The notes below the pieces were generated by a model. It was not told where the DNA came from. It did no database searches and saw nothing but the letters and a program-made list of their open reading frames with translations. From Octopus sinensis (taxonomy: Eukaryota), in contig NC_043018.1 in NCBI RefSeq assembly GCF_006345805.1, positions 12,710,001-12,774,000 of the forward strand: a DNA stretch of 64,000 bases. Direction: 5' to 3'. The translations under genes and the position numbers were made by a program. Shown here in pieces: positions 16,320 through 61,250 of the stretch (positions are counted from its first letter, which is position 1; each line of letters starts with the position of its first letter).

Positions 16320-18543
16320 CAATTTGTATCCTTGTGGTACCAGTGCCGGTGGCACACAAGAATCCATCCGAACGTGGCCGTAGTCAGTACCGCTTGTGGT
16401 ACCACTGCCGGTGGCACACAAGAATCCATCCGAACGTGGCCGCAGTCAGTACCGCTTGTGGTACCAGTGCCGGTGGCACACAAGAATCCATCCGAACGTG
16501 GCCGTAGTCAGTACCGCATCACTCGCCATCGTGCTGTGGGCACATAACAAACCACCATCCGGCGTGGCCGTTCGCCAGCCTCATCTAGCACCTGTGTCGG
16601 TGGCACATAAAAAGTAGTCAGTAACCGCTTGTGGTACCAGTGCCGGTGGCACACAAGAATCCATCCGAACATGGCCGTAGTCAGTACCCCATCATCACTG
16701 GCCTCGTGCTGTGGGCACATAACAACACCATCCGGTCGTGGCCGTTCGCCGCCAGCCTCATCTAGCACCTGTGTCGGTGGCACATAAAAAACACCTTCCG
16801 AAGACCCGGCAAGACTAGTCAGGCCATAAAACATGGCCCCTACCTGGGACGTAGTCAGTCCACCTGTGCATACCTTCCTCCTTGTGATACTTGTGAAGGC
16901 CTGTTGAGGCAAGTGAAAATCAAAATCAAAATCAAATCAAAACAAATCAAAATAGATGAACATCAATGGAATTTGTATCTTTGTGGTACCAGTGCCGGTG
17001 GTACACAAGAGAAAACCATCCGAAAGTGGCCGTAGCCAGTACCGCATCGACTGGCCTCCGTGCTGTGGGCACATGACAAACACCATCCGATTGTGGCCGT
17101 TCGCCAGCCTCATCTAGCACCTGTGTCGGTGGCACATAAAAACACCATCCGAAGACCCGGCAAGACTAGTCAGGCCATAACCCATGGCCCCTACCTGGGA
17201 CGTAGTCAGTCCACCTGTGCATACCTTCCTTCTTGTGACACTTGTGAAGACCTGTTGAGGCAAGTGAAAATCAAATCAAAACAAATCAAAATAGATGAAC
17301 ATCATGGAATCTGTATCTTTGTGGTACCAGTGCCGTGGCACACACTTTGTGGTACCAGTGCGGTGGCACACAAGAGAACCATCCGAACGTGGCCGTAGCC
17401 AGTTCCGCATCGAGCGGCCTCCGTGCTGTGGGCACATAACAAACACCATTCGATCATGGCCGTTCGCCAGCCTCATCTGGCACCTGTGTCGGTGGCACAT
17501 AAAAACACCTTCCGAAGACCCGGCAAGACTAGTCAGTCCACCTGTGCATACCTTCCTTCTTGTGACACTTGTGAAGACCGGTTGAGGCAAGTGAAAATCA
17601 AAATCAAATCAAAATAGACAAAATAGATGAACATCAATGGAATTTGGTATCTTGTGGTACCAGTGCCTGTGGCACACAAGAAATCCATCAGTGCCGTAGT
17701 CAGTGCGGTGGGCACATGACAAACACCATCCGATCGTGGCCGTTCGCCAGCCTCATCTAGCACCTGTGTCGGTGGCACATAAAAACACCATCCGAAGACC
17801 CGGCAAGACTAGCAGGCCATAACCCATGGCCCCTACCTGGGACGTAGTCAGTCCACCTGTGCATACCTTCCTTCTTGTGACACTTGTGAAGACCTGTTGA
17901 GGCAAGTGAAAATCAAAACAAATCAAAATAGATGAACATCAATGGAATTTGTATCTTTGTGGTACCAGTGCCGGTGGCACGTGGCACATAAGAAAACCAT
18001 CCGAACGTGGCCGTAGCCAGTACCGACCCGCATCAACTGGCCTCCGTGCTGTGGGCACGTAACAAGCACCATCCGATCGTGGCCGTTTGCCAGCCTCATC
18101 TGGCACCTGTGTCGGTGGCACATAAAAACACCATCCGAGCGTGGCCGTCTGCCAGCCTCGTCTGGCACCTGTGTCGGTGGCACATAAAAACAACCATCCG
18201 AGCGTGGCCGTCTGCCAGCCTCGTCTGGCACCTGTGTCGGTGGCACATAAAAACACCATCCGAGCGTTGCCGTCTGCCAGCCTCGTCTGGCACCTGTGTC
18301 GGTGGCACATAAAAACACCATCCGAGCGTGGCCGTCTGCCAGCCTCGTCTGGCACCTGTGTCGGTGGCACATAAAATCACCCACTACACTCTCGGAGTGG
18401 TTGGCGTTAGGAAGGGCATCCAGCTGTAGAAACACTGCCAGATCTGACTGGACTGTGGCACTTCGGGCTCCCAGACCCCAGTTGAACCGTCCAACCCATG
18501 CTAGCATGGAAAGCGACGTAAATGATGATGATGATGATGATGA
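16320..18543 (+). repeat. Nested tandem array derived from an RTE-LINE 3' UTR, ending in a (GAT)n tail
   Basis: Large units start GAAGACCCGGCAAGACTA at 16800, 17151, 17514 and 17794. Nested ~58-62 bp subunits contain GTGCCGGTGGCAC. The 3' end is shared with the RTE copy at 36600-37090. Confidence 0.9.
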
Positions 18544-22489: not shown

Positions 22490-22546
22490 TGCGCATGCGC
22501 CGCCGTATTAGAATCTTGAGGGCCGTGCGCTCGGAAAATGGCGGAC
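22490..22546. promoter_or_regulatory. CpG-rich promoter with NRF1-type palindrome and YY1-type motif overlapping the start codon
   Basis: TGCGCATGCGC at 22490-22500 and AAAATGGCGG at 22535-22544, in a locally CpG-enriched region of an otherwise CpG-poor window. Confidence 0.6.
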
Positions 22547-22689
22547 GAGAGACGGGGGCACCACCAAGCCGTTTGTAAAGGCGAGAAATTACCTGTATTC
22601 ATCGAGGAAGCTATCGAGGATGTCCTCATCGTGTGCTTGGAGGCCGGCGCCAAGAAATACCGCGGTGTTCTGGTCGATTCCGACAAAAG
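22538..22689 (+). CDS. PWWP2A: PWWP domain-containing protein 2 (PWWP2A/B-like), coding exon 1
   Basis: ATG in aaaATGG context. Translates MADERRGHHQAVCKGEKLPVFIEEAIEDVLIVCLEAGAKKYRGVLVDSDK(R), which resembles the PWWP2 N-terminal motif (IEDALVV...GVLMDLSKR.GPHG) as I recall it. Ends AG|GTAAGC (phase 2) and joins exon 2 in frame. Confidence 0.9.
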
Positions 22690-23086
22690 GTAAGCTCAAA
22701 TATTTTAATTATTCTTTGGGCCAGAGCTATCGTATTGAAATGTTGTCAAAAAGTGTGACGACAGCTGACTTTTCCTGTCAGCGTCCGTGTCTGCTATTTT
22801 TGGCTATTTTCATATTTCCATTTCTCTCTCTTTCAATGTTTTGCCTTTCTTCAATCTTCTGCCCAACATCTTTGCACAACAACGGTGCCGTTGATAAACA
22901 TATAGAGATGCACACACATTTTAAAAAAAACCTTCTACCCATTTGTTTTAAGTAACAATGAGTCGGTCATTCGGCTCCGACCGCCGACGAATCTGTTTTT
23001 GTGTATCAGGCGAATCATTGAAACATCTTTCGAAACTGCTACTGAATCAGTAAGTTCCAACGGGAATGAAATAAATGTAATTATAT

Positions 23087-23122
<36 letters not shown>

Positions 23123-23359
23123 CTCTCTCATAGTATGTGTGTGTGTCTGTATTGTAAATATATATATATATGTATATATATATATGTATATATATATATA
23201 TGTATATAGGTGTGTGTGTGTATATAGATATTTATAGATATATCCTTATTATTACTCTTATTATATGTGAATGAATGTATATGTATGTCTGCATGGTCCC
23301 ACACCTCCCAGATTCACCTATTCAGCTTAATTAAATCCACAATTTGTTTCTTGTTGCAG

Positions 23360-25643
23360 AAGTTTGCCCCACGGTGTATGTTTCCCGTTTAAAAGGGATT
23401 CCAATGATGACTCGTCAGATAGTAAAAGTGACACGAACGTTGGGTGTACCGAGAAGGGAGATCAGAATGTTCAGATCTCTGCTGCGGCCCTTCGGCATAC
23501 GTACAATCAGGATTTTTCACAGTTCGGCGAAAAGGTTGTAGCATTGACCAAAAGGACGTACACTAGACATTTCAAAGACAAGACTGTGCGAAGTATTCGC
23601 CTTAGACCTCGTCAAACTCTGTGCTCCAAATGCAAGTCGGCATGCCATGACAGTGCGGCAGATCCGAGTTCTTCCATTGCTAAGAGCTCTCAGAACTCTT
23701 CACTGTCTTCTGTTTCACAATCTTCTTCAAACTCTCTTCACTCTCTTCCATCCCGGCTTTCAACACCCACATCTCTTAAACCACTACTTCTCCCACCGCC
23801 GCCGCCGCCGCCTCCACCACCCCCACCACAATTTCCAGCCCCTTTGCCTCTGACCACACGTAACAACCAAAACACTCGAAACAACACTCTCATGTTCAAT
23901 GCACGTAGTAGATCCCCACCAATAACCAGAAACCGGCAACAAAATACCCCGCTCTCTTCCCCCAAAACTAATCGGTATTGCCAACCGCCTCCTTCTCCAA
24001 AACCATCACGTTATAGTCAACCACCTCCTTCACCAAAAACTACAAGGTACAACCAGCCCCCGCCATCTCCAAAAACTACACGATACAGTAGCAACCAGCC
24101 ACCTCCATCGCCCCGGGCAACACGATACAATCAGCCACCCCCTTCACCTAAAAATACATATTACAATCAACCACCACCATCACCCAAGAACTCAAGGTAT
24201 GCCCAACCCCCTCCATCCCCCAAGCCCTCTCGTTACAACCAGCCTCCACCCTCACCTAAATCTTTACGTTACAACCAACCACCACCATCACCTAAGCCTC
24301 CTCATTACAATCAGCCACCACCATCTCCACGCAATTCTCGTTATAGCTTACCACCACCATCACCTAAACCCCCTCGCTTCAATCACCCTTCTCAATCTCC
24401 TAAACCTCCACGCTTTAATCAACCCCCACAATCTCCCAGACCAGTAAGTTCCCCAATAACCCTCCCCCTACCACAAGCCCAGGTTCAGCTGGAACCTCTG
24501 AAACTCACAGAACATCCAGAAACAAGGAGTGAGTCTCGAAAGAGGAAAAGCTCTCTGGCCGAGGAGTATGTGCCTACTAATGATAAACTGAACCCTAAAT
24601 CTGAAGGACTGACCATTGTGAAATCTAGTCCAATTATAAAAATATCAGTTGGTGAGGGGACTGTGCTAAAAATTCCTCCTCGCCTTCATTCTGAAGTAGT
24701 GGATACAGACCAATCTTCAGATGAAAAACTTGAAAATAAAGAATATTCAAGTCATAAAAGATTGAAAAAAGCTTTAAAGAAAGCCAAGGAGAAGCTGAAA
24801 CGGGTAGACTCTGAAAATGGTGATAAAATCTCGTCAGGTCATCACCGAAAGCACAAGCGGAAGCATAAACATAAACATGCTTGTGCGGATATAGATCGTA
24901 ATTTACCAGCTCTGGGTGTTGACAAATCAAACAGAGAGGAAAATGACTTTGAAACTGAGCCGACTGATTCTGAGATGAACGACCATCAGCGGCCTCGGTT
25001 GTTGTACACTTGGCGGCGAAACAGCGGTTTATCACGGGTAGAATCGGAGAGTTCAGCAAACACCATATCAGGAGATTTAAAAAATGAAAAATCCACAGTA
25101 AATCTTTTGCTTGATAATTCTTTAGAAACGAAATCGGAATCCTCAGGCGAATCGACGGACGGTTTTAACTCAAACTCAGCTAACGGGATATCTGATTCGG
25201 ACTCTGATTACAGGGATGAATATGAAGAGCAAGAATTCCCAGGGAGTCAGTCACCCACGTCTGATTCCCTGAAACCTCTCATGATGAAAATTCAAACTAA
25301 AACTGTTACAAAAGTTGAAACTTCTGAGGGTCGTATAATTCATGTTGGAGATATTGTCTGGGGTAAGATTCAGGGCTTTCCCTGGTGGCCAGGACGAGTC
25401 CTCTCCATTACTGTAAGTACACGAGACAATGGAGTTGTGATAGCTCAGCTGGCTCACGTCTCGTGGTTTGGGTCCTCCACTATGTCACATATGCAGTGTG
25501 TCGATTTATATCCATTTTTAGAAGACTTTAAACTCCGATACAACAAAAAGAAGCGGGGTCCTTATAAAGTGGCTATAAAACAGGCAACTGTGGCTGCCAA
25601 GAGTTTCCTTGGAAATATCAAAATGGAAGATTTTGAATTGTGA
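23360..25643 (+). CDS. PWWP2A: PWWP domain-containing protein 2 (PWWP2A/B-like), coding exon 2; spliced protein 811 aa
   Basis: Acceptor ttcttgttgcag|A completes AGA. Open to TGA at 25643. Contains LRHTYNQ and IRLRPRQTLCSKCK motifs, a basic HRKHKRKHKHKH stretch, and a C-terminal PWWP domain (VGDIVWGKIQGFPWWPGRVLSITVS...VSWFGS...KKKRGPYKVAI). Probably the single invertebrate counterpart of PWWP2A/2B. Confidence 0.93.
23976..24449 (+). repeat. Coding tandem repeat: 13 x 12-aa (Y/F)xQPPPSP(K/R)xxR
   Basis: Read directly from the translation: 36-nt period with one 6-nt insertion and heavy synonymous variation between units. Confidence 0.95.
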
Positions 25644-43045: not shown

Positions 43046-44440
43046 TGTAGCAAGGGCCATCAAGGCTAAAGGGAACAGGGCAGAGTTATATTCCCTCGTT
43101 CGGTTGTCAGTAGGTGGCGCTTTGATGCTACTTCTGCTAGAGAGGTATAAAATCCCTTGTTGAACATCCAGTCTTTCTCTTTTTCTGTTTCCCCTTCTGG
43201 GCAGGCAGCTTATGACTGCCCACACAGCTATGACCGCTAGCTCTCTTTTATTCCTGGCCATGACAACTACCACGCTATGTAGCTAGTACAATGCTCACTC
43301 TCTATTCTTCCAGCATGAACCTTTAACCCTCAATGACTACTGGCTTAATTACTAGCCACACCGACTGACTAAATTCACTAATGAGGGAACAAACAGTTTG
43401 TATACCTTTGTTACACATAACCTTGTCTGAATGTTGTTTGTTACATACACATACACACAACACTAAACAAATGAACCAGACTAATGCCTGATTCTATCCT
43501 AAAATGCTGAGCCCAACATGCAAATATTCACGTGGAATATTCTCTCAAAGAGAAATTTGTGTGGAGTTGACATGTGCCTGATTCTTCTTCCTCACTGTTT
43601 CTAAGACGGCCTACTTGAAATGGCATATTTTTCTTCTTCGTGCCTATCCTTATCCAACATTTCCTGTACCCAGGAGCAACATGCAGCATTCTTCTTTTCC
43701 CATTTTTAGCGGTAATGTCTATCTCTGGTTTGCTCAGGAAGAAGCTTACTTTGTGGTGAGCAATATTCAGTCCAGCCGGCAGCAACTAAACATTTTACTC
43801 AACACCATTCCTTTTGCTTTAGCCATTCAACTCAAAGACCTGATTACTGATACACTACACAACATGACTTATTCATCTATAAAGTGCAAAGTACTTCGTA
43901 GGACGTCTCTTTCCACAGAGCACCATTTTCAGACTCTCATCAATGACGAATATTTGGGAAACAGAAGACTGACAGAATTTCATTGTCGCATCTGGGACCT
44001 ACGTGATGTAGCTCCAGAAGACAGTTCCCTGCTTAAGCAGCCCTTTTTCCTGTGCTTACCCCCACAAGTTCAGGCAATTTTGGTGCCCATTGTCAACGGA
44101 AGTTCGGTGGAACAGATTGCTAATTTGGCTGATAAGATTATGAAATTCTCAAGAAATCCGCTTGCGGCCGACAGAATCGTTGCTGTGTCTTCTCCATTGA
44201 TGGCTACATCTCCTACAGACTGCATCTCTACTCAGTCAGCAACTTTAGAAGCCATTTTAAATCTGACCAAGCAAGTCAAGAGGTTGTGTCCATCCCAAAG
44301 TTTCCAGCATCACAGTTATTCAACCAGTCATAGCCAGAGTTCTTTGTTGCACGCCTTGCCACATGATTTTTGTTGGTATCATGACTGTTTTTTTGCAAAG
44401 GCATGGAAATACCTTCCACCATGTTCGTATGTGTGCCAGG
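43046..44440 (+). mobile_element. Gypsy/Ty3 (CsRn1-like) LTR retrotransposon remnant: probable 5' LTR, degenerate tRNA-Trp PBS, gag; pol absent
   Basis: TGTAG start at 43046 and TATAAAA at ~43147. TGCTGAGCCCAACATG at 43505 resembles the tRNA-Trp PBS TGGTGACCCCGACGTG. Gag motifs LWFAQ.EA.F, LGNRR, LPPQVQAIL and ANLADKI, plus a C-x2-H-x9-(Y for C)-x3-C knuckle. Confidence 0.8.
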
Positions 44441-44508
44441 AAGATACAAAAGAAGATATAAACAGAAGATACAAATATTACAGGCATCCCCCCACATACA
44501 CACACTAA
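43615..44508 (+). CDS. Gag-like ORF of a gypsy element (first ATG 43681); the last ~20 codons read into an unrelated repeat
   Basis: 297-codon ORF in the track, carrying the gag motifs listed for the element. Confidence 0.6.
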   Translation: MKWHIFLLRAYPYPTFPVPRSNMQHSSFPIFSGNVYLWFAQEEAYFVVSNIQSSRQQLNILLNTIPFALAIQLKDLITDTLHNMTYSSIKCKVLRRTSLSTEHHFQTLINDEYLGNRRLTEFHCRIWDLRDVAPEDSSLLKQPFFLCLPPQVQAILVPIVNGSSVEQIANLADKIMKFSRNPLAADRIVAVSSPLMATSPTDCISTQSATLEAILNLTKQVKRLCPSQSFQHHSYSTSHSQSSLLHALPHDFCWYHDCFFAKAWKYLPPCSYVCQEDTKEDINRRYKYYRHPPTYTH

Positions 44509-53412: not shown

Positions 53413-53923
53413 CCGTAAATCCTCGAGTATAGTCCGCCCTTGAGTATAATATGCAGGGGATTTTTAAGGGGCTGTGCCTCTGGAAACCTAGACCTTATGT
53501 ATAATATGCACCCCTTCTCTAACTTGAGTCAAGGAGGTCTATATCCTGTCCTTGGTTTGTAAAACTGTATACGGTAACGTCCTTTATTATTTTGGCATAT
53601 ATAACATAATGCAAACGTGTAGCTTTTTTGTGCATTTTGTTTGCAGAAAATAAAGAAATAACAGTAATAACGTTTAATAAATGTTGCTTACTGCAAGTTA
53701 TGGATGATTCTTTTATGACTTCATTGCTTTCAGGCTTAGCTTAAGGTATTTTCGCACCCGACATCACAAAATGCGTCTGAATAAACATTGCCGGACAACA
53801 AATAGAGACTCGGACATTGCTTAGAAAATGATTTTCATTTTTAACCTTGTATATAGTACACACTAGGGATTCTGACCTTTAAATTTTGGGGAAAAAATGC
53901 GGATTATACTTGAAGATTTACGG
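53413..53923. mobile_element. Tc1/mariner-superfamily (pogo/Tc2-like) MITE with TA TSD, in RCCD1 intron 5
   Basis: TA|CCGTAAATCCTCGAGTATAGTCCGC ... GCGGATTATACTTGAAGATTTACGG|TA. Confidence 0.85.
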
Positions 53924-53956
53924 TATGTAAAATCATATGTAGAAGTTTATACTTAC

Positions 53957-54184
53957 TTGTAAGAACAGCAGTATGGCGTGCACCACATGCGACTTTGGCT
54001 ACAACAATATCCTCTTCCTTGTCATCAGGTGGCAGCACTAAATATGGCAGAGCTTGAATTGTTACGGCATCGTTCTTTTCACTGCAATCGTCAGTAATTT
54101 TAAACTCATGATCCAAATTTTTCCTACACAGGATGCCAAGTTGTCCACATTCATTCCATCCCCACATGTACAAATCTCCAAACT
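53957..54184 (-). CDS. RCCD1: RCCD1-like coding exon 5
   Basis: Strong pyrimidine tract ending ttggcag. Encodes (E)FGDLYMWGWNECGQLG...VAKVACGARHTAVLT. Donor A|GTAAGT. Phase 1 to 1. Confidence 0.93.
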
Positions 54185-54319
54185 CTGCCAAATACAAAAA
54201 AGAAAAATAAGAGTTGAAACAGATTATCATCCTTTTATGTATGCTTTTCAGGCTGGCATGGGTCGGATGGGTTGTCTAAGTTTGAGTCAGTTCATATTTG
54301 AAGTCACTTCTCTTCTAGA

Positions 54320-55462
54320 TAGCTCAGGAAGTGCATCCAGAAAAGCTAGACAGAAGAACTAAGAAGGAATTCAATATGAATGGAGGACTCCACCCAAAGG
54401 CAGGATTAGCAAGATTATACTTACCTAGAAAGGAGGGTGGAGGAGTGTTAATATCAGTAGAAGACTATGTGGAGTTAGCTAGAGTAGATATAGACTCATG
54501 CGTAGGTAATAGGGAAAAAAGTTTATTAAAAGCAAGACATAGGGAAACCAAAAACCTAAACAAAGTTAAAAACCAGAAAAAAAGAACAGAAATAATCTGA
54601 TTGGCAGGAGAAGGCATTCCCAAAGATATTTGCAACAAATAGTAGTAGTGAGACATGGTTATGGTTGCAGAAAGGAAGGCTGGAAAGGGAGACAGAAAGT
54701 CTGTTAGTAGCAGCACAAGATCAAGCATTAAAGACTATTCGGATAAAAGACAAGACAGGCAAAAACTAAGTAGATTCCCAATGTAGGTTATGTAAATCAA
54801 AAGAGGAAAGCATTACTCATATAGTAAATGAATATAGCATTCTGGCACAGAAACAATACAAGAAAAGACATGCTAACCTAGTGGGAGCAATCCACTGGGA
54901 ACTATGTAGAAAGCTAGGATTTGAGCATACTGATAAATGGTATGAACATGAACCTAGTAAAGTATTAGAAAGAAAGAAATACAAAATGTTGTGGGACTTT
55001 AACATTCAGACTGACAGAGCAATAGAAACTAGAAGGCCTGATTTGGTAACAGTAGATAAAGCGAATAGAAAATGCCATTTAATTGACTTTACAGTCCCAA
55101 ATGATGAAAACATTAATGTGAAAAGTATGGAGAAAATAGCAAAGTACCAGGACCCAGCCATTGAATTATAGAGGCTATGGGAAGTACAGGTAAAATGTAT
55201 CCCAGTAGTTACAGGTACATTAGGAACTATCCCTAAAGATCTGAACAGATGGATAGAGGAAACAGGCATAAAACCCAGTTTAATACAGCTCCAGAAAACA
55301 GTGTTATTAGGGACAGTTAAGATACTTAGGAGGGTTTTGGCATCTAAGGTTACTTGTTGTAGCCCAATAGGAGGGTTCTTGGCATCTAAAGATGTTAGGG
55401 TTCTTTTCTTTTCCAACAGTCTAATCTGTTGAGTGTATATGAAAATAATAATAATAATAATA
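54320..55462 (+). mobile_element. R4/Dong-type LINE 3' part with CCHC knuckle, restriction-like endonuclease and (AAT)n tail, in RCCD1 intron 4
   Basis: LHPKA..ARLYLPRKEGG, AAQDQAL, CRLC...E...H...(Y), LWDFNIQTDR.IETRRPDLV and LIDF.VPND, with stops and frameshifts. Confidence 0.9.
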
Positions 55463-58287: not shown

Positions 58288-58367
58288 ATATTTTACTATA
58301 AAATTGGATTCAATCCTAAATCTGATTTTTCCCTGTAAATTTGGATTTATTCCCTAATATTTATTAT

Positions 58368-58403
<36 letters not shown>

Positions 58404-58543
58404 ATATATATACATACATACATATATAATATATATTTATATGTGCAGATATACGTGTGTGTACTCTAAGTACAAACGATGTAATTAGCAGACCACATAG
58501 AACACAGTAAGAATGACAGGAATGAACTATAGAATCAACAAAC

Positions 58544-58709
58544 CTTCCTGATCCATAGGAAAAAACAGAACCAAAGTCAGATAGCATTAATACATGATCT
58601 ACACCACATGCCACAGATCTGATGGCACACCCCAGTGGGAGAGGTTTGCATATGTATTCTATAGATGACTGATGGTAAACCGGACTAATTTCAACCGGAA
58701 CATTCTCTT
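58544..58709 (-). CDS. RCCD1: RCCD1-like coding exon 3
   Basis: Acceptor tctttattttgcag. Encodes ...CKPLPLGCAIRSVACGVDHVLMLSDFGSVFSYGSG (RCC1 repeat). Donor AG|GTTTGT. Phase 1 to 2. Confidence 0.9.
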
Positions 58710-58788
58710 CTGCAAAATAAAGAATAACCTTTCACTTTTAAAAAAACAACAGAGAAGGAGATGGTGAGGCACCTCAATAATAAAAATG

Positions 58789-60201: not shown

Positions 60202-61250
60202 TCTTCTATACTATAAGAGCCACACCCGTCCGTCCGTCCAAAGCCATCAGCAATTAGATCATAGCTTCCCAAAGTGGGCAATATCGCCCACCAGTGGGTG
60301 ATTTCAACTTACAGGTGGGTGATGGGCGAATTTGTAGAAAATGGTGGGAGATTTGAGATTTTGGTGGGTGATATGAACATTTTGTGGGTGACAATGAATT
60401 TTTAGAAATTGAGTCTGCATTTACTGATATCTAGGTATGCCTAGAATAAGGATGCACTTTTATCGATTTGACTACTCACACGAGACGTCGCTTTGTATTA
60501 AAAAAAAGCAGACTTGCTAATCGATTGAACATTTTTGTCACCGTCATTGAGATGGTTGTCATGTGTGCTGAAAATAGCAGCCAAGTAGGCCTAAGCTTTA
60601 AATCACACTCCACCACAAATTTTTTTTAGTGTTTAGCACAATCATATGAAGTCCCGTGTATAGAATTCAAATTTGCAAAAATTTTCTGTAAACTCCGAAA
60701 ACTAAAAAGTTATGAGGAGTTATATATCGTGCATAATTCTGTGACTTCATATCAAAAGTACAAGAGCCTCATGGAAATGTATTGCCATCACTGCAATGCT
60801 TTGGTGTTTATTGGAGAGTGTACAGGAGGAAGAATGAACAATCCCAGTTTTGGTATTTGCTGTAAATCAGGAATGATAAAAACTGAAAATATCCCAGAGT
60901 TACCGAACACACTTACTGATCTCTTTCTTTCTGATACTCCCAAAGCAAAATATTTCAAATGTAGTATTCGAAGGTTCAACAACATAATGGTAATGTGTTC
61001 TATGAAAGCAGATGACACTTCAATACTGAGAGGAATTACAAATTACAGAATACATCGAATTCTTTATAGATTTATTGGAGTTCCTAGAAACCAAATAGGA
61101 ACAGTCCTGTCTAGCTTACAAATGTATTTCTATGATCATGAAGAACAAATAAGATGACGAACGGAAAGAATGCCTCTTAATACAAAGCAAACCTTTGAAG
61201 TAAACTATTTTGAAAGATTCATTCTGCTATGAGATCTGCTGGAAATACTG
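60202..61250 (+). mobile_element. Helitron 5' portion with RepHel N-terminal fragment, in RCCD1 intron 2
   Basis: A|TCTTCTATACTATAA 5' terminus followed by (CGTC)n. ORF 60729-61157 encodes CHHCNAL...CCKSGMI...P..L..LF...IRRFNN...YRI...IG...QMYFYD, typical of the region before the Rep domain. Confidence 0.8.

What the first reader, a model, noticed from the sequence alone, without database searches (positions are those of the whole stretch)
23976..24449. PWWP2 carries a 13-copy Y-x-Q-P-P-P-S-P-K/R repeat, a CTD/SPKK-like phospho-array in a chromatin reader
Seen: 13 consecutive 12-aa units (e.g. YNQPPPSPKTTR, YAQPPPSPKPSR) with invariant S-P-[K/R] and a regularly spaced aromatic residue. Third codon positions are scrambled between units, so the periodicity appears maintained at the protein level rather than being a recent DNA slippage. 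The array sits between the conserved RLRPRQ.LC..C motif and the PWWP domain. Known: P-x-S-P is the MAPK consensus and S-P with downstream basic residues is favoured by CDKs. SPKK-type motifs bind AT-rich minor grooves. Tyr-spaced low-complexity repeats such as the Pol II CTD drive phospho-regulated condensates. Vertebrate PWWP2A links H2A.Z/H3K36me3 nucleosomes to an MTA1-HDAC module, and I do not recall such a repeat there. Inference: a lineage-specific, phosphorylation-switchable DNA-binding or condensate module, notable in a genome full of (TA)n tracts.
Basis: partly seen in the sequence, partly recalled or inferred. Interest (0 to 1): 0.75.

Follow-up and report, generated by a model that had tools for sequence, protein, structure and literature searches.

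The report
Ancient cephalopod phospho-array in chromatin reader
The octopus version of the chromatin protein PWWP2 carries an expressed 13-unit proline-rich, positively charged repeat that is kept unit by unit in cuttlefish but is missing from the other animals checked, and it likely acts as a phosphorylation-controlled charge switch that would loosen the protein's grip on chromatin.

Summary
The repeat is real: 13 units (consensus R-Y-N-Q-P-P-P-S-P-K-x-x; twelve of 12 aa, one of 14) inside the large exon of a single-copy PWWP2 gene. Spliced transcript contigs from three studies span it. Synonymous sites between units are saturated. Cuttlefish has 14 units in the same order, irregular ones included, after roughly 300 million years; the array is 86% identical against 73% for other disordered parts. 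None of 169 other PWWP2 proteins with the MTA1-binding motif has it; squid and Nautilus were not sampled. The SPKK and CTD labels fail their definitions (0 of 13 each), so the (TA)n link has no support. The sites fit ERK2, CDK8 and CDK1 matrices (98th percentile or better), not CDK9/12 (86th). The array holds 24 K/R and no acidic residue, which 13 phosphates would about cancel. Best reading, inferred: a coleoid-specific multisite charge switch beside the HDAC-complex docking motif. Closest analogues: human BUD13's 12-aa repeat and LRP6 PPPSP motifs. A new variant of a known kind; no function measured.

The parts
22538..22689 (+). PWWP2 coding exon 1 (ATG to GT donor)
   Evidence: splice joint GT..AG in three transcript contigs; 92% identical to the cuttlefish N-terminus
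22690..23359 (+). 670-nt intron with a (TA)n tract
23360..25643 (+). PWWP2 coding exon 2 to the stop codon
23598..23633 (+). RLRPRQTLCSKC motif, matching the R/QPRQV/L motif proposed to dock on MTA1:HDAC1 in vertebrate PWWP2A
   Evidence: aa 93-147 are 55 of 55 identical in cuttlefish
23793..23828 (+). 12-proline run ahead of the array
23937..23972 (+). degenerate unit 0 (SSPK in register; not kept in cuttlefish)
23973..24446 (+). 13-unit R-Y/F-x-Q-P-P-P-S-P-K/R-x-x array, 158 aa, 24 K/R, no D/E, predicted disordered
24636..24674 (+). conserved PIIKISVGEGTVLKIP segment, predicted beta-hairpin; downstream boundary of the variable linker that holds the array
24741..24806 (+). basic predicted helix (KKALKKAKEK)
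25347..25595 (+). PWWP domain
   Evidence: PF00855 E 1.6e-12; best solved match for the cuttlefish orthologue is the PWWP2B domain 4ld6, E 7e-28

Best explanation
This is an ancient repeat of 13 Ser-Pro sites, shared by octopus and cuttlefish PWWP2, that likely works as a multisite phosphorylation charge switch: unphosphorylated, its 24 positive charges would add non-specific DNA/nucleosome binding next to the likely MTA1-HDAC docking motif, and phosphorylation by proline-directed kinases (predicted MAPK, CDK8 or CDK1 type) would cancel that charge and loosen or move the complex. Shown: the repeat, its expression, its age and conservation, its restriction within the sample, its charge and motif content. 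Inferred: that the serines are phosphorylated, by which kinase, that the array touches DNA, and that the HDAC link of vertebrate PWWP2A holds here.
For: Core columns 1-10 differ at 11 of 130 positions between orthologous octopus and cuttlefish units, the two spacer columns at 13 of 26; Ser, the +1 Pro and the -3 Pro never change. Array identity 136/158 against 228/312 in other disordered parts, p 0.0015. Sites rank at median percentile 99.9 (ERK2), 99.4 (CDK8), 98.1 (CDK1), 12 of 13 at 95 or more, against 1437 S/T-P sites from other PWWP-domain hits; 14 of 14 in cuttlefish. Net charge +24 with 13 sites here, +24 with 14 in cuttlefish: about two basic residues per site. AlphaFold pLDDT 40-55, no secondary structure. 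The array sits in the linker that corresponds roughly to the internal region of human PWWP2A, whose parts bind linker DNA and H2A.Z nucleosomes, and PWWP binding to DNA is described as charge-mediated (PMC6191444, passages). Reiterated PPPSP motifs are real MAPK/GSK3/CDK substrates in LRP6 (PMC8134664, passages). Small SP[K/R] clusters occur at other places in scallop, insect and gastropod PWWP2.
Against: No phosphorylation or binding data. Only 5 of 303 kinase matrices were scored, they are human, and the background is my own set, not the paper's phosphoproteome. No +3 basic residue in any unit (0 of 13). The whole protein evolves slowly (PWWP 97%, another disordered part 75%), so the excess conservation is moderate. 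Copy number moves (13 vs 14), and one contig of an unnamed relative at depth 4.3 has an in-frame 18-nt deletion in unit 11. A pure charge switch does not explain why the Tyr/Phe, the Gln and unit-specific quirks are kept.
Confidence: 0.45

Rival explanations
1. The array is a repeated docking platform, working like the Pol II CTD or the LRP6 tail: each phosphorylated unit binds a reader (for example a Pin1-type WW domain, recalled) or a kinase, and 13 copies amplify recruitment.
For: Residues far from the Ser (Arg -7, Tyr/Phe -6, Gln -4) are kept, although the matrices give -4 Gln and -5 Asn no advantage for CDK1/8/9/12. PPPSP in 11 of 13 units; one PPxY is kept in both species. 16 of 33 non-consensus residues are shared with cuttlefish.
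Against: CTD heptad absent; CDK9/CDK12 fit only 86th percentile. LRP6-type PPPSPx[S/T] in 3 of 13. No partner identified; no structural match.
Confidence: 0.22
2. The array is a sticker-and-spacer condensate module (Tyr/Arg stickers at fixed spacing) whose self-association is switched on when phosphorylation neutralises it.
For: Regular Arg-Tyr pairs, disorder; CDK multisite phosphorylation can switch condensation of disordered proteins either way (PMC10562473, abstract).
Against: Only 14 aromatics in 158 aa, 37% proline; phosphorylation would give an evenly mixed charge pattern, not the charge blocks that drive Ki-67 condensation (PMC9106583, abstract; my inference).
Confidence: 0.15
3. The array is mainly a stiff proline-rich spacer, or an old expansion kept by weak compositional constraint, with the Ser-Pro sites incidental.
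For: This linker varies freely in length among orthologues (median 131, maximum 271 aa in 115 others; 332 here); slow overall rate of the coleoid protein; unit gain/loss and a possible half-unit deletion.
Against: Ser invariant in 27 of 27 units of two species while neighbouring spacer columns turn over; synonymous sites saturated while residues are kept; substitutions in relatives almost all synonymous (4 of 4, 25 of 28, 10 of 11 codons over exon 2).
Confidence: 0.12
4. The units are SPKK-type minor-groove binders that target the complex to (TA)n tracts.
For: S-P-basic in every unit; the window is rich in (TA)n; SPKK binding is blocked by Ser phosphorylation (PMC9903204, passage).
Against: The motif is defined as SP(K/R)(K/R); 0 of 13 octopus and 0 of 14 cuttlefish units match, and the +3 position is mostly Pro, Asn or Thr.
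Confidence: 0.05

Closest known systems
Vertebrate PWWP2A/PWWP2B (PMC6191444, PMC6143588; passages)
   Same: C-terminal PWWP domain, RPRQ motif with CxxC, long disordered proline- and serine-rich middle.
   Different: No SP[K/R] array in the vertebrate proteins checked; their proline-rich stretches lie upstream of the RPRQ motif, the cephalopod array downstream.
Human BUD13 N-terminal repeat (PDB 5z56 chain Z)
   Same: Only PDB sequence hit of the array (E 3e-4, strongly composition-biased): 12-aa period with Arg, His/Tyr, then P-S-P-basic in the same register; a nuclear protein.
   Different: BUD13 units carry acidic residues and an extra T-P; a splicing factor; homology not shown, convergence is my inference.
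LRP5/6 reiterated PPPSPxS motifs (PMC8134664, passages)
   Same: Reiterated PPPSP core (11 of 13), phosphorylated in LRP6 by proline-directed kinases including MAPKs.
   Different: Second S/T at +3 in only 3 of 13; strict tandem 12-aa period; basic, nuclear protein instead of a membrane receptor tail.
SPKK motifs of sperm H2B/H1 (PMC9903204, passages)
   Same: Repeated S-P-basic; phosphorylation as an off-switch is the same idea.
   Different: Second basic residue absent in all units; units three times longer and proline-rich.
RNA polymerase II CTD (YSPTSPS)
   Same: Tandem low-complexity repeat with a regularly spaced Tyr and Ser-Pro sites, disordered.
   Different: Period 12, one Ser-Pro per unit, no YSP, strongly basic, poor fit to CDK9/CDK12.
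Ki-67 repeat domain (PMC9106583, PMC10562473; abstracts)
   Same: Disordered repeats in a chromatin protein regulated in bulk by multisite phosphorylation.
   Different: No sequence likeness tested or claimed; Ki-67 works through charge blocks, which this evenly spaced array would not form.

Membership tests
PWWP2 (PWWP2A/B orthologues) | C-terminal PWWP domain closest to PWWP2A/B | tested here: met
   PF00855; best PDB match PWWP2B 4ld6; named hits are PWWP2A/B-like
PWWP2 (PWWP2A/B orthologues) | R/QPRQV/L motif proposed to bind MTA1:HDAC1 | tested here: met
   RLRPRQTLCSKC against KLRPRQVLCDKC in vertebrates; Thr replaces Val
PWWP2 (PWWP2A/B orthologues) | Aromatic cage for H3K36me3 | tested here: inconclusive
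   PWWP-core aromatics are invariant across 33 orthologues including two vertebrates; cage positions were not mapped one by one
PWWP2 (PWWP2A/B orthologues) | Binding to MTA1-HDAC and H2A.Z nucleosomes | not testable with these tools
   known only for vertebrate proteins
SPKK motif | SP(K/R)(K/R) | tested here: not met
   0 of 13 and 0 of 14
SPKK motif | AT-rich minor-groove binding | not testable with these tools
   needs binding assays
Pol II CTD | YSPTSPS heptads | tested here: not met
   no YSP; period 12
Pol II CTD | Substrate of CTD kinases | tested here: inconclusive
   CDK9 and CDK12 median 86th percentile, 0 of 13 at 95 or more; CDK8 99th; CDK7 and CDK13 not scored
Canonical CDK site | S/T-P-x-K/R | tested here: not met
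   0 of 13; yet CDK1 matrix median 98th percentile because Pro at -3/-2 and Lys at +2 rank first
MAPK site | P-x-S/T-P | tested here: met
   12 of 13; ERK2 median 99.9th percentile
MAPK site | Docking motif for the kinase | not tested
   no docking-motif library at hand
LRP6 PPPSPxS motif | PPP[S/T]P core | tested here: met
   11 of 13
LRP6 PPPSPxS motif | Second S/T at +3 | tested here: not met
   3 of 13

The most novel reading that the evidence does not exclude
On the coleoid stem, PWWP2 gained a CTD-like phospho-tail that couples MAPK or Mediator-kinase (CDK8) signalling directly to the placement of an HDAC complex on active chromatin, a cephalopod-only signal-to-chromatin switch in which both the charge and the unit-specific sequence are read, possibly serving activity-dependent gene control in large brains.
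Probability: 0.15. Interest if true: 0.8.

Novelty: new variant of a known kind. Interest (0 to 1): 0.5.

Why it matters
How PWWP2A switches between chromatin states is stated as unclear in the vertebrate literature (PMC6191444, discussion passage). Coleoids supply a natural, amplified version of a candidate switch: 13-14 near-identical sites in one piece that is easy to express, phosphorylate and mutate. It is also a clean case of a low-complexity repeat that froze after expansion and has been held unit by unit for about 285-340 million years (PMC10925132, passage), and a concrete protein-level novelty in coleoid chromatin machinery. It does not define a new class of system: multisite Ser-Pro arrays in disordered nuclear proteins are well known.

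Tried and rejected
Recent DNA slippage: rejected, synonymous sites are at chance level and TRF scores only 68-77% matches. Splicing out: rejected for the main transcript, three contigs span the array without gaps; rare isoforms are invisible in contigs. Mobile or genome-wide motif: the degenerate 27-nt unit pattern matched 5 places in the genome, all inside this array. First unit-order test was misregistered because the script cut cuttlefish at 13 of 14 units (p 0.17); redone after dropping cuttlefish unit 4, the best of 14 possible drops (units 1-4 score 130-132), and trimming the 14-aa units to 12, so its p (0 of 200,000) is somewhat optimistic. Search for short array-bearing fragments: none among 7988 scored. 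Search with the cuttlefish array: only the two cephalopod clusters among 7987 scored. No squid, vampire squid or Nautilus sequence with a name was found. ESM Atlas: no usable feature hit, structure TM 0.26 at best. Runs X23 and X24 gave no contig, which shows nothing. X19 and X20 cover parts of the exon only; their organisms are unknown. Unnamed P0024 lacks the array and shares some motifs with coleoids; grouping it with them is neither rejected nor shown (p-AU 0.35). The IQ-TREE run did not finish; FastTree was used. No complex prediction was sent, as no partner is named and phosphates cannot be modelled. Earlier scan notes gave nothing relevant.

Full report
What is there. The finding lies in a two-exon gene: ATG at 22538, exon 1 to 22689, a 670-nt GT-AG intron, exon 2 from 23360 to the stop at 25643, 811 aa. 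[quoted passage not shown] The host is an octopod by inference from its cuttlefish sister sequence and from the wording of other notes on this genome.

Thirteen units run from 23973 to 24446; twelve are 12 aa and unit 4 is 14 aa. S-P-[K/R] is in 13 of 13, Tyr/Phe at -6 in 12 of 13. Periodicity is far above shuffles (0.68 vs 0.18). Between units, codon positions 1 and 2 are 77-79% identical, position 3 39%; synonymous codon choice is no more alike than in shuffles (0.363 vs 0.362); pS 0.73, pN 0.21, a rough dN/dS of 0.09 that saturation makes imprecise. The expansion is old and no longer homogenised. The unit pattern occurs at 5 places in the genome, all in this array.

It is expressed. Three of three RNA-type runs laid, from three studies and two organism labels, each give one contig that joins the two exons at the predicted GT-AG intron and spans the array without a gap; the DNA run shows no such joint. 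The four exon-2 differences of the second organism are all synonymous, two of them in the array. Contigs cannot show rare isoforms or expression level.

It is ancient. The second-best protein cluster contains PWWP2A of the cuttlefish Acanthosepion (Sepia) pharaonis, CAE1250289.1. It has 14 units. With one early cuttlefish unit set aside (the best of 14 choices) and long units trimmed, matched units share 10.2 of 12 residues against 8.2 for unmatched ones (0 of 200,000 permutations); the long SPRAT unit and the YY, HY, RYSL and RF units come in the same order. Columns 1-10 differ at 11 of 130 positions, columns 11-12 at 13 of 26. The array is 136/158 identical, other disordered parts 228/312 (p 0.0015), folded parts 97-100%. 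The octopus-decapodiform split is given as 285-340 million years (PMC10925132, passage). Against rigidity: copy number differs, and one contig of an unnamed relative (depth 4.3, may be an error) has an in-frame 18-nt deletion that by its position removes the core of unit 11. A further near-identical protein, P0001, keeps 13 units with one change.

It is restricted. Of 239 sequences surveyed, 174 carry the LRPR..C..C motif; five are the window and the cuttlefish cluster, and none of the other 169 has more than five [S/T]P[K/R] in 80 aa. The linker that holds the array is 332-349 aa in the cephalopods against a median of 131 and a maximum of 271 in 115 others. Named outgroups include bivalves, gastropods, a brachiopod, a nemertean, arthropods, hemichordates, amphioxus and vertebrates; many rows are unnamed. 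In a tree of 84 rows the array-bearing proteins form one clade on a long stem. Squid and Nautilus were not found by name, so 'coleoid-specific' rests on octopods and one cuttlefish cluster. Small SP[K/R] clusters of three to five occur elsewhere in scallop, insect and gastropod orthologues.

What the motif is and is not. SPKK is defined as SP(K/R)(K/R) (PMC9903204, passage): 0 of 13. Canonical CDK S/T-P-x-K/R: 0 of 13. CTD YSP: 0. P-x-S-P: 12 of 13. PPPSP: 11 of 13, but the LRP6 second site in 3 of 13. I scored the sites with five matrices from Supplementary Table 2 of PMC9876800 (parts read; passages) against 1437 S/T-P sites from the non-cephalopod hits: median percentiles ERK2 99.9, CDK8 99.4, CDK1 98.1, CDK12 86.4, CDK9 86.2; cuttlefish is alike. 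The other 298 kinases were not scored and the background is not the paper's. The conserved columns are not a by-product of composition. The array is predicted disordered (pLDDT 40-55) and holds 24 K/R and no D/E; the cuttlefish one 25 K/R and one Glu. One phosphate per unit would about cancel this charge (inference).

How it most likely works. Vertebrate PWWP2A binds linker DNA and H2A.Z nucleosomes through its internal region and DNA and H3K36me3 through the PWWP part (PMC6191444, passages), and binds MTA1:HDAC1 through a region with the R/QPRQV/L motif (PMC6143588, passages). That motif is intact here and the array follows it. A docking platform (0.22) explains the kept Arg-Tyr and Gln better; a condensate module (0.15), a spacer (0.12) and AT-groove reading (0.05) follow. 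These are not exclusive, and none was measured.

Known relatives and novelty. The only PDB sequence hit of the array is human BUD13, with a 12-aa repeat in the same register but acidic (E 3e-4, biased). LRP6 shows that reiterated PPPSP motifs are kinase substrates (PMC8134664, passages); Ki-67 and CDK substrates show bulk phospho-control of disordered repeats (PMC9106583 and PMC10562473, abstracts only). A search for 'PWWP2' with 'octopus' found no paper, and the listings showed none on this repeat; the library lacks most subscription journals, and supplements of genome papers were not searched. Verdict: a real, expressed, deeply conserved, apparently undescribed lineage-specific array; a new variant of a known kind; interest 0.5.

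Noticed in passing
P0003, P0025 (scallop PWWP2), P0098, P0148, P0158, P0167 (insect-type), P0041, P0049, P0051 (gastropod-type): Separate small SP[K/R] repeats at other positions of the PWWP2 disordered region (GLSPRRD three times in scallops; SPRY/SPRH clusters in a louse and related hits), suggesting repeated gain of such sites.
   Followed up: partly
PWWP2 family: Papers call PWWP2A vertebrate-specific or conserved in chordates, yet orthologues with both the RPRQ-CxxC motif and the PWWP domain occur across bilaterians.
   Followed up: partly
window 24297-24308: A single PPxY (PPHY) at the unit 9/10 junction is kept in octopus and cuttlefish; PPxY as a WW-domain ligand is recalled, not tested.
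   Followed up: no
window 24636-24674: Conserved PIIKIS...VLKIP segment is predicted as a beta-hairpin with pLDDT 73-79 inside otherwise disordered sequence; no Pfam family covers it.
   Followed up: no
P0024: Unnamed 695-aa orthologue without the array that shares some motifs with the coleoid proteins; organism unknown, placement unresolved.
   Followed up: partly
window 53907-54275 and 58357-58731, minus strand: Exons of an RCC1-repeat gene.
   Followed up: no
window 18054-18381 and 31664-31783: 62-63-bp tandem repeats of one family; similar sequence appears in other frames of the window.
   Followed up: no
window 39896-40399, 43582-44505, 54770-55168, 60630-61154: Transposon-like fragments: reverse transcriptase (PF00078), DUF7041, and two frames without a firm Pfam match.
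   Followed up: no
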